This document shows positions 21,126-21,717 of a DNA stretch of 22,200 bases, piece after piece. Each line of letters opens with the position of its first letter. The first letter of the stretch is position 1. Source of the stretch: Rhynchopus sp. YZ270_cl-10 (lineage: Eukaryota). The stretch spans positions 1,736,001-1,758,200 of the forward strand of contig OZ037845.1 in assembly GCA_964035575.1 (NCBI GenBank), given 5' to 3'. A program made the translations under genes and the position numbers. The notes beneath the pieces are model-generated. The model did not search any database. It was not told the origin of the DNA and was given only the letters and a program-made list of their open reading frames with translations.

Positions 21126-21234
21126 CATTTTTTACAGGGGACCATTTTTTACACAAGGGGACCATTTTTTACACAAGGGGACCATTTTTTACACAAGGGG
21201 ACCATTTTTTACACAAGGGGACCATTTTTTACAC
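21117..21234 (+). repeat. Tandem array 1 of 17-20-bp units containing GGGGACC (6 copies)
   Basis: GGGGACC at 21120, 21137, 21157, 21177, 21197 and 21217, separated by ATTTTTTAC(ACA)A. Confidence 0.95.
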
Positions 21235-21368
21235 ATTACAACACACTTGTCCTTTCTTTTTACCCTCCCTCCCTCCCCCTTTCCTTTGTTTTATTGTGAG
21301 CCTTGTACGCCTCCACGGGGCGGTCCCTGGGCAACGGTTGAGGAGTGCAGGCCGGCGAAGCGCAAGGC
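21217..21368 (+). ncRNA. HDV-like self-cleaving ribozyme, copy 1
   Basis: P1 GGGGACC (21217-21223) pairs with GGTCCCT (21322-21328) with a G+1:U wobble. Long J1/2. P2 GCCTTGTAC/GCGCAAGGC; P3 GCC/GGC; L3 TCCACGG; P1.1 GG then GCAAC; P4 hairpin; J4/2 GCGAA with catalytic C at 21356. Order and conserved bases match the genomic HDV ribozyme. Confidence 0.88.
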
Positions 21369-21395
21369 GTAGTGTGTCTTGTCCTTCTTTGTTTT

Positions 21396-21587
21396 CATTT
21401 TTTTACAGGGGACCATTTTTTTACAGGGGACCATTTTTTTACAGGGGACCATTTTTTTACAGGGGACCATTTTTTTACAGGGGACCATTTTTTTACAGGG
21501 GACCATTTTTTTACAGGGGACCATTTTTTTACAGGGGACCATTTTTTTACAGGGGACCATTTTTTTACAGGGGACCATTTTTTTACA
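21396..21587 (+). repeat. Tandem array 2 of the 18-bp unit ACAGGGGACCATTTTTTT (10 copies)
   Basis: GGGGACC every 18 nt from 21408 to 21570. Confidence 0.97.
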
Positions 21588-21717
21588 CATTACAACACAC
21601 TTGTCCTTTCTTTTTACCCTCCCTCCCCCTTTCCTTTGTTTTATTGTGAGCCTTGTACGCCTCCACGGGGCGGTCCCTGGGCAACGGTAGAGGGTGCAGG
21701 CCGGCGAAGCGCAAGGC
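21570..21717 (+). ncRNA. HDV-like self-cleaving ribozyme, copy 2
   Basis: Same architecture: P1 21570-21576/21672-21678, catalytic C at 21705. It differs from copy 1 only in J1/2 and P4. Confidence 0.88.

What the first reader, a model, noticed from the sequence alone, without database searches (positions are those of the whole stretch)
21217..21717. Two tandem HDV-like ribozymes with an HDV-genomic-like core
Seen: both copies contain all five pairings of the nested double pseudoknot. P1 is GGGGACC/GGTCCCT with a G:U wobble at +1, P2 is GCCTTGTAC/GCGCAAGGC with one mismatch, P3/L3 is GCC-TCCACGG-GGC, P1.1 is CC/GG, followed by GCAAC-P4-GCGAA. Differences between copies fall only in J1/2 and P4. 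Known: this is the HDV/CPEB3/R2/L1Tc ribozyme fold, where the C in GCGAA is catalytic. Inference: they cut read-through + strand transcripts 5' of GGGGACC. The roughly 75-nt pyrimidine-rich J1/2 would hide them from many motif searches.
Basis: partly seen in the sequence, partly recalled or inferred. Interest (0 to 1): 0.9.

Follow-up and report, generated by a model that had tools for sequence, protein, structure and literature searches.

The report
Ribozyme-headed repeat in a diplonemid genome
Two perfectly folded matches to a known kind of self-cutting RNA (HDV-like) sit at the front of a DNA repeat that likely has hundreds of copies in a marine protist; it is likely the start of a jumping gene whose RNA would cut itself free, with the first 17-20 letters stuttered into short arrays that would offer several alternative cut sites.

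Summary
Both copies contain P1 (7 bp, G·U at +1), P1.1, P2, P3, P4 and the J4/2 cytosine (21356, 21705). A generic descriptor finds only these two in the window and 1 hit in 150 shuffles. The host is a diplonemid. In two public runs the ribozyme and the sequence behind it lie about 130-1,100-fold deeper than a neighbouring gene, and other contigs join it to different upstream DNA at or just before GGGGACC: the 5' end of a dispersed repeat. GGGGACC is itself the head of a 17-20-nt unit repeated 6 and 10 times, so the cut site is not unique; such arrays also show in run X5. The 'tRNA-Ala' beside it is a 61-nt antisense fragment, not a theta-ribozyme substrate. Best reading: the self-cleaving 5' end of a non-LTR retroelement, as in R2 and L1Tc, with a 180-nt piece of a second family member in front. 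No reverse transcriptase could be shown (the window ends) and cleavage is untested. New member of a known kind; my searches found no report from diplonemids.

The parts
20507..21039 (.). 41 perfect tandem copies of a 13-nt unit (partial copies on both sides); upstream neighbour, role unexplained
   Evidence: the same unit follows a paralogue of the long ORF in run X5 (loose end at 11893)
21056..21116 (-). 61-nt internal fragment of a tRNA-Ala(CGC) gene (about positions 10-71), antisense to the ribozymes; lacks the 5' acceptor strand, the last bases and the T-run terminator
   Evidence: ARAGORN and Rfam call a tRNA at 21052/21054-21126, but intact versions in runs X4, X5, X6 leave the window sequence at 21116 and at 21056/21061 (loose ends and records 17, 18, 25, 26)
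21117..21216 (+). Stutter array 1: ACA, one 17-nt unit, four 20-nt units; each is the first 17 or 19 nt of the element (the latter plus A) and starts with the P1 5' strand
21217..21368 (+). HDV-like ribozyme, copy 1 (nearest P1 strand to end of P2); predicted P1.2 stem 21232-21243/21287-21298; catalytic-position C21356
   Evidence: this version of P4 and J1/2 is the one assembled in runs X5 and X6
21369..21396 (+). 28 nt of the element's trailer; copy 1 stops here in a T-rich tract
   Evidence: (D13)
21396..21569 (+). Stutter array 2: a partial unit and nine identical 18-nt units (first 18 nt of the element)
   Evidence: (D3)
21570..21717 (+). HDV-like ribozyme, copy 2; predicted P1.2 21586-21597/21637-21648; catalytic-position C21705; P4 one pair shorter
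21718..21782 (+). Pyrimidine-rich spacer; there is no ATG between 21117 and 21782
   Evidence: shared with contigs of X5 and X6 up to 21830, which lack 11 nt at 21769
21783..22200 (+). Start of low-complexity open frames running off the window: ATG 21783 (Ser/Asn-rich, hydrophobic N-terminus) and ATG 21826 (Ala/Thr-rich); which is used is unknown
   Evidence: first 48 nt are high-depth in X1 and X4; no homologue found

Best explanation
Both stretches fold on paper into the complete HDV-like double pseudoknot and head a repeated DNA family, which is likely a non-LTR retroelement whose RNA would cut itself out of host read-through transcripts just 5' of GGGGACC. Steps: (shown) the fold, the catalytic-position C, the arrays of 5'-terminal units, high depth of ribozyme plus downstream DNA, several upstream flanks; (inferred from R2/L1Tc) Mg2+-dependent cleavage gives the element RNA its 5' end; (inferred) the reverse transcriptase, on reaching that end, re-engages the template near nt 17-19 several times and once near nt 180 of a second family member, or copy 2 inserted into copy 1, which gives this window's order: short units, one whole extra ribozyme, short units, element; (inferred) since any unit can pair as P1, cleavage at an upstream unit would let arrays be inherited by daughter copies.
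For: Fold and chance control. Same P3/L3/GGGCAAC core in phage ribozymes, where the unconstrained P1' 7-mer has a G-starting partner within 30 nt upstream for 12 of 20 distinct 7-mers against 6 of 272 cross pairs. Depth: baseline 523 (X1) and 159 (X4) over 9500-10600; ribozyme 131- to 1,116-fold (X1) and 228- to 736-fold (X4); ORF start 245- and 374-fold. X5 and X6 hold the element at depth 36.8 and 6.75 with no cover of 9500-10967. Flanks: X4 record 10 matches from exactly 21570 with 657 other nt upstream; X1 record 1 and X4 record 9 match from 21549 with about 450 and 3,400 other nt upstream (table 8; 29 of 1,140 pieces are shown). X5 contigs of 47, 48, 50 and 49 nt equal unit length plus 30 and sum to about 5 units per element body. 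In another eukaryote-looking assembly, 5 of 6 metagenome hits are a dispersed repeat whose shared sequence starts at GGGGACC (or one base before), and 1 of the 5 (L141) carries tandem copies of its first 15 nt plus 2-3 extra letters. Literature: hundreds of HDV-like copies between conserved downstream and differing upstream DNA are the retrotransposon pattern (PMC6765202 passages); duplicated P1 strands at R2 5' junctions (PMC3774820).
Against: No reverse transcriptase or endonuclease is in view: the window ends 480 nt after copy 2, and the two open frames found no relative. No 3' end or target-site duplication could be examined. The tool states that summed contig depth is not a copy number; short overlapping contigs inflate it, and the kind (DNA or RNA) of all four runs is not on record. 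The three flank contigs are diverged copies (8-10 other letters, 6-8 gaps in about 95 nt). Unconstrained folding does not give the ribozyme helices as minimum-energy structure, and with the pseudoknot strands blocked P1 forms with probability 0.998 in copy 1 but 0.31 in isolated copy 2. D. papillatum has a genome-wide habit of tandemly repeating gene ends (PMC10161547 passages), so the arrays may have grown by DNA slippage, not by reverse transcription. The P1 identity with L141-L146 was imposed by my search pattern.
Confidence: 0.65

Rival explanations
1. The ribozyme is active but belongs to a multicopy host gene family (for example a secreted Ser/Asn-rich protein starting at ATG 21783) and separates its message from upstream RNA; the arrays are DNA-level slippage.
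For: The frame from 21783 begins with basic residues and a hydrophobic run followed by many N-S-S triplets (signal-peptide likeness is my reading, no predictor run). A pyrimidine tract and AG dinucleotides precede the frames. Tandem repeats of gene 5' regions are described for D. papillatum. No RT was found.
Against: Similarity to other copies stops at or just before G+1 and flanks differ, which host gene duplication does not predict; trans-splicing would already define a host message's 5' end (general knowledge of euglenozoans); a diverged subfamily keeps the ribozyme but has other DNA after 21757.
Confidence: 0.12
2. The family is a retroelement, but these copies are relics or so slow that cleavage does not matter: the long, mostly unpaired J1/2 and the G-rich units mispair with the C/U tract.
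For: Proximal units pair with the pyrimidine tract of J1/2 in the folding model; P1.2 is weak (about -3 kcal/mol) and 8-9 nt away from P1, whereas fast large HDV-like ribozymes depend on a stable P1.2 (PMC4908430 passages).
Against: Every core pair and the catalytic-position C are intact in both copies, and the single contigs of X5 and X6 differ from copy 2 by 1 substitution, outside the core pairs P1, P1.1, P2, P3; total P1 probability stays above 0.99 when the arrays are present.
Confidence: 0.13
3. The element is a site-specific retrotransposon that inserts antisense into tRNA-Ala(CGC) genes between positions 9 and 10, perhaps duplicating positions 10-71; the 13-nt array would be the 3' tail of a neighbouring copy.
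For: The junction falls exactly at the start of the D-stem, both ends of the tRNA piece are sharp, and the tRNA is itself high-depth (about 300-540-fold in X4 and X1). tRNA-targeting elements exist in other lineages (search listing).
Against: In X5 and X6 contigs run through position 21116 into intact tRNA genes without a break (records 17, 18, 25, 26), though the element is at similar depth; X1/X4 junction contigs have flanks that are not this tRNA; no second tRNA piece lies upstream in the window. Contigs drop rare variants, so this is not absence.
Confidence: 0.08
4. Chance resemblance in repeat-rich DNA.
For: Rfam scores are below threshold; the two copies are one event, not two.
Against: 1 descriptor hit in 150 shuffles; core shared letter for letter with phage ribozymes that show P1 covariation; family begins at the predicted cut site.
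Confidence: 0.02

Closest known systems
L1Tc/ingi Pr77 ribozymes and SIDER2 of trypanosomatids (PMC4035085, PMC12278014; passages)
   Same: Euglenozoan host; HDV-like ribozyme at the very 5' end of a dispersed repeat; release from polycistronic RNA; SIDER2 carries two hallmarks in tandem.
   Different: Pr77 is a compact 77-nt unit; here the ribozyme is 148-152 nt with a 73-76-nt J1/2. The pair here is a 5' piece plus an element separated by a 10-unit array, and X5/X6 assemble one ribozyme. Sequence likeness to Pr77 was not tested.
R2 retrotransposon ribozymes (PMC3774820; passages and section 18)
   Same: Long J1/2; duplicated P1 strands at 5' junctions giving two possible cut sites; short tandem additions at junctions.
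   Different: R2 duplicates 28S target sequence, usually once and in a minority of copies; here the element's own first 17-19 nt are repeated up to 9 times, about 5 per element in X5. No rDNA target.
Theta and other phage HDV-like ribozymes (PMC10879173 passages; loci L001-L140)
   Same: Same P3/L3/P1.1 core letters; a tRNA sequence nearby.
   Different: Theta ribozymes are minimal (no P4) and cut within 5 nt of a tRNA 3' end; here P4 is present and the tRNA piece is on the other strand, broken at both ends.
Genomic HDV ribozyme (recalled)
   Different: 3-nt J1/2 in HDV; viral satellite context.

Membership tests
HDV-like ribozyme | Nested double pseudoknot: P1, P1.1, P2, P3 (P4 optional) in the right order | tested here: met
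   2 hits in window, 1 in 150 shuffles
HDV-like ribozyme | About 7-bp P1 directly after P3/L3, G at +1 (wobble or pair) | tested here: met
   G·U plus 6 WC pairs; 6 and 10 alternative 5' strands
HDV-like ribozyme | Catalytic cytosine at the start of J4/2 | tested here: met
   C21356, C21705 by position; role described in PMC10879173
HDV-like ribozyme | Score above a curated family threshold | tested here: not met
   RF02682 26.5 and 24.9 bits, cut-off 44; that model is one bacterial subfamily with short J1/2, so this excludes that subfamily only
HDV-like ribozyme | Covariation within this family | tested here: inconclusive
   one search lists one substitution (21689, P4); no diverged full sequences available
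HDV-like ribozyme | Mg2+-dependent self-cleavage lost in C-to-U mutant | not testable with these tools
   bench test
Ribozyme-headed non-LTR retroelement (R2, L1Tc/ingi, RTE type) | Many copies | tested here: met
   130- to 1,100-fold depth over a neighbouring gene in 2 of 4 runs laid; element present without that gene in the other 2; depth is a rough proxy
Ribozyme-headed non-LTR retroelement (R2, L1Tc/ingi, RTE type) | Conserved downstream, differing upstream, boundary at the cut site | tested here: met
   table 8: 3 listed contigs (2 distinct junctions) plus the window; few cases, diverged copies
Ribozyme-headed non-LTR retroelement (R2, L1Tc/ingi, RTE type) | RT and endonuclease ORF, or 3' end shared with an autonomous element | tested here: inconclusive
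   only 125-139 aa of low-complexity frames in view; no hits
Ribozyme-headed non-LTR retroelement (R2, L1Tc/ingi, RTE type) | Target-site duplication and 3' tail | not testable with these tools
   3' end outside the window; no genome held
L1Tc/ingi Pr77 hallmark | Ribozyme within the first 77 nt | tested here: not met
   148-152 nt against 77 nt
Theta ribozyme | Cut site within 5 nt of a tRNA 3' end, same strand; minimal fold without P4 | tested here: not met
   tRNA piece is antisense and truncated; P4 present; definition
tRNA-specific retrotransposon | Most copies at the same tRNA position | tested here: inconclusive
   leans against: intact tRNA contigs unbroken at 21116 in X5, X6; other flanks in X1, X4

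The most novel reading that the evidence does not exclude
A diplonemid retroelement family whose reverse transcriptase repeatedly recopies the ribozyme-defined first 17-19 nt of its RNA, building arrays of up to ten P1 strands; because the ribozyme can cut at any of them, the arrays are inherited and renewed through RNA, a telomerase-like stutter at the 5' end that has also arisen in an unrelated ribozyme-headed repeat (L141).
Probability: 0.25. Interest if true: 0.62.

Novelty: new member of a known kind. Interest (0 to 1): 0.42.

Why it matters
It would extend ribozyme-headed retroelements from trypanosomatids to their sister group, the diplonemids, and hand over a marker for one of that genome's high-copy repeats. 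How non-LTR elements finish and attach their 5' end is still the least certain step of their integration (PMC3774820); a family with hundreds of copies, each with a countable array of 5'-terminal units, would make template re-use and cut-site choice directly measurable. The ribozyme itself is an ordinary HDV-like fold.

Tried and rejected
No genome is held for the window, so no genome-wide census. No RNA holder listed. Exact family pattern in viral contigs: 0 hits; in prokaryote genomes: 1 hit, L147, without upstream P1 strand or J4/2, judged chance; L142 lies inside a bacterial-looking ORF on the other strand, judged chance. No metagenome locus matched the window outside the core (blastn). 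Protein searches of the downstream frames: none for the Ala/Thr frame, none for the Ser/Asn frame; the protein atlas did not answer. Five short frames of 19.4-20.4 kb (of 26 listed) had no Pfam hit, and that region is only 0.4- to 5.5-fold deep, so it is not the 3' body of the high-copy element. The intact-tRNA call by ARAGORN was rejected. Uncovered bins (21266-21292, 21482-21508) are skipped repeats and were not used. Rfam hits isrG, miRNAs, Phe_leader, cHP, sR53 are low-complexity or sub-threshold and were dropped. Earlier findings: 3 look-ups, nothing. Ruminski et al. 2011 (PMC3308841) is not held; it is known here only through the review PMC6765202. The partition-function preference for far-upstream P1 strands was not taken at face value, because that model does not charge for long multiloops (my knowledge of the program); a loop-length estimate gives upstream units 31-73% instead.

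Full report
Observation. I wrote a generic descriptor (3-bp P3, 6-8-nt L3 starting T-Y-Y, 7-nt P1' ending in a pyrimidine, P1.1, P4 of at least 3 bp, C-N-R-A, P2 of 6-10 bp with at most one mismatch, G-started P1 up to 300 nt upstream). It returns exactly these two cores on both strands of the 22.2-kb window and 1 hit in 150 block-wise dinucleotide shuffles. Rfam sees both cores only weakly (RF02682, E 0.3 and 0.7, below cut-off). So the core is a natural HDV-like motif, not a descriptor artefact. J1/2 carries a predicted P1.2 stem of 10 pairs ending next to P2, about -3 kcal/mol.

GGGGACC occurs 16 times, only in 21120-21576. It heads units that are the element's own first 17 nt, first 19 nt plus A (array 1) or first 18 nt (array 2). 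Each can make the same P1. A folding model with the pseudoknot strands blocked puts P1' mostly on far-upstream units, because the nearest units pair with the C/U tract of J1/2; a loop-length estimate gives upstream units 31-73%. Neither is decisive, but both say the cut site is open. For R2, cleavage at either of two duplicated P1 strands and inheritance of the duplication have been proposed (PMC3774820, section 18 read whole; junction passages).

The window is from a diplonemid: the kinesin at 1136-2287 has its best named relatives in a Hemistasia-labelled transcriptome ('Hpha') and Diplonema papillatum (51-64% identity for the top 7 of 60 rows), ahead of kinetoplastids. Fifteen of 24 listed runs hold part of 21050-21830. 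I laid 4 of them. In X1 and X4 the phosphatase gene region 9500-10600 is covered flat at about 523 and 159 by contigs with no differences, and no GT..AG joint is among the 15 joints listed for 9.5-20.5 kb, so I read them as DNA of this organism (kind not on record). Against that baseline the ribozyme is 131-1,116-fold (X1) and 228-736-fold (X4) deeper, the ORF start 245- and 374-fold, the region 19-20.5 kb only 0.4-5.5-fold. The tool warns that summed depth is no copy number, so I take only the order, 10^2-10^3. In X5 and X6 that gene is not covered, yet one contig each spans 21565/21561-21830 with 1 substitution. These contigs have the copy-1 form of J1/2 and of position 21689 joined to the downstream DNA of copy 2, so a single-ribozyme element exists, and the window's copies 1 and 2 look like two family variants rather than a local duplication. 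X5 also holds contigs of 47, 48, 50 and 49 nt that match the arrays; these are unit length plus 30, as a loop in a 31-mer graph would give, and sum to about 5 units per element (X6: about 0.9). Three listed contigs join the element to other upstream DNA at 21570 (G+1) or 21549; two others leave it at 21757, a diverged subfamily (29 of 1,140 pieces shown).

ARAGORN's tRNA-Ala(CGC) at 21052-21126 on the minus strand borrows its acceptor stem from the arrays. Intact genes in X4, X5 and X6 leave the window at 21116 and 21056/21061, where they supply a proper acceptor stem with a G3·U70 pair and a T-run (my reading of the loose ends). The window keeps 61 nt, antisense to the ribozymes, between the first array and 41 copies of a 13-nt unit. 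It cannot be a theta-type substrate (definition in PMC10879173 passages). As it lies in tRNA sense on the would-be cDNA strand, it cannot have been copied from a tRNA molecule by a template jump (inference from strand); it is either the site that was hit or filler copied from DNA (junction classes in PMC11331408 passages). Regular tRNA targeting is not supported: X5/X6 contigs pass 21116 unbroken and other flanks exist.

A parallel. The one metagenome scan gave 6 loci. Five (L141, L143-L146) are a dispersed repeat with five different upstream flanks whose shared sequence starts at GGGGACC or one base before it, and folds as a compact HDV-like ribozyme with another P2; L141 has five further GGGGACC-headed units upstream, four being the first 15 nt plus 2-3 letters. 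It shares nothing else with the window, and its P1 was fixed by my pattern, so it shows the same behaviour in a probably unrelated element, not kinship.

Mechanism. Shown: fold, arrays, repetition, boundary. Inferred from R2 and L1Tc (PMC6765202, PMC4035085, PMC12278014 passages): the element is transcribed as part of host + strand RNA, the ribozyme cuts 5' of a GGGGACC, and the freed RNA is reverse-transcribed into a new site. The window's order (3 nt, 5 units, 180-nt piece of variant 1, partial unit, 9 units, variant 2) fits repeated re-engagement of the RT at the RNA's 5' end with one jump to a second RNA, or insertion of variant 2 into the T-rich trailer of variant 1. Later DNA slippage may have lengthened the arrays; D. 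papillatum repeats gene ends in tandem (PMC10161547 passages). What the element encodes is open: no ATG precedes 21783, two low-complexity frames run off the window, and neither has a relative in the searches made. D. papillatum has 745 proteins in an orthogroup labelled SLACS-like RT (supplement row), so candidates for a partner exist, but no link was shown.

Novelty. 5' HDV-like ribozymes of retroelements, long J1/2, duplicated P1 strands and tandem ribozyme pairs are all in print. [quoted passage not shown] Verdict: real, likely active, new member of a known kind; the family-wide multi-unit P1 arrays are the one feature worth following. Interest 0.42.

Noticed in passing
L141, L143-L146 (pattern match and about 20 nt upstream): A dispersed repeat in a eukaryote-looking assembly headed by a compact HDV-like ribozyme (J1/2 of 2-3 nt), five different flanks; L141 has tandem copies of the 5' end.
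   Followed up: partly
window 20500-21055: 41 perfect copies of a 13-nt unit joined to the tRNA fragment through an 8-nt duplication of tRNA sequence; the same unit follows a paralogue of the long ORF in run X5. Could be a mobile satellite, the tail of a tRNA-headed SINE on the minus strand, or a retroelement tail.
   Followed up: partly
window 21056-21116: tRNA-Ala(CGC) appears to be in two high-copy units with different acceptor stems and conserved flanks (X5 depth 57.7 and 46.2 where a neighbouring gene has none).
   Followed up: partly
window 11016-18878 (+): Intron-free 2,620-aa ORF with a hydrophobic N-terminus, Cys-rich repeats and a duplicated C-terminal block (17925-18662); no Pfam hit; multi-copy family by depth.
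   Followed up: no
window 18900-20490: Intergenic region at 0.4- to 5.5-fold depth with many indels between copies and a 52-nt direct repeat (19135/19501); pieces near 20249-20467 join to positions inside the long ORF in some contigs.
   Followed up: partly
L001-L140: At least 140 phage loci carry P4-containing HDV-like ribozymes with this core; in several of the 40 loci scanned for tRNAs a tRNA gene starts 35-45 nt after the matched core (e.g. L001, L015) or ends about 20 nt before it (L028).
   Followed up: no
window 21719-22200 (+), third frame: The third frame of the downstream repeat reads as poly-Gln interrupted by TAA and TAG at equivalent places of two repeat units; no start codon.
   Followed up: no
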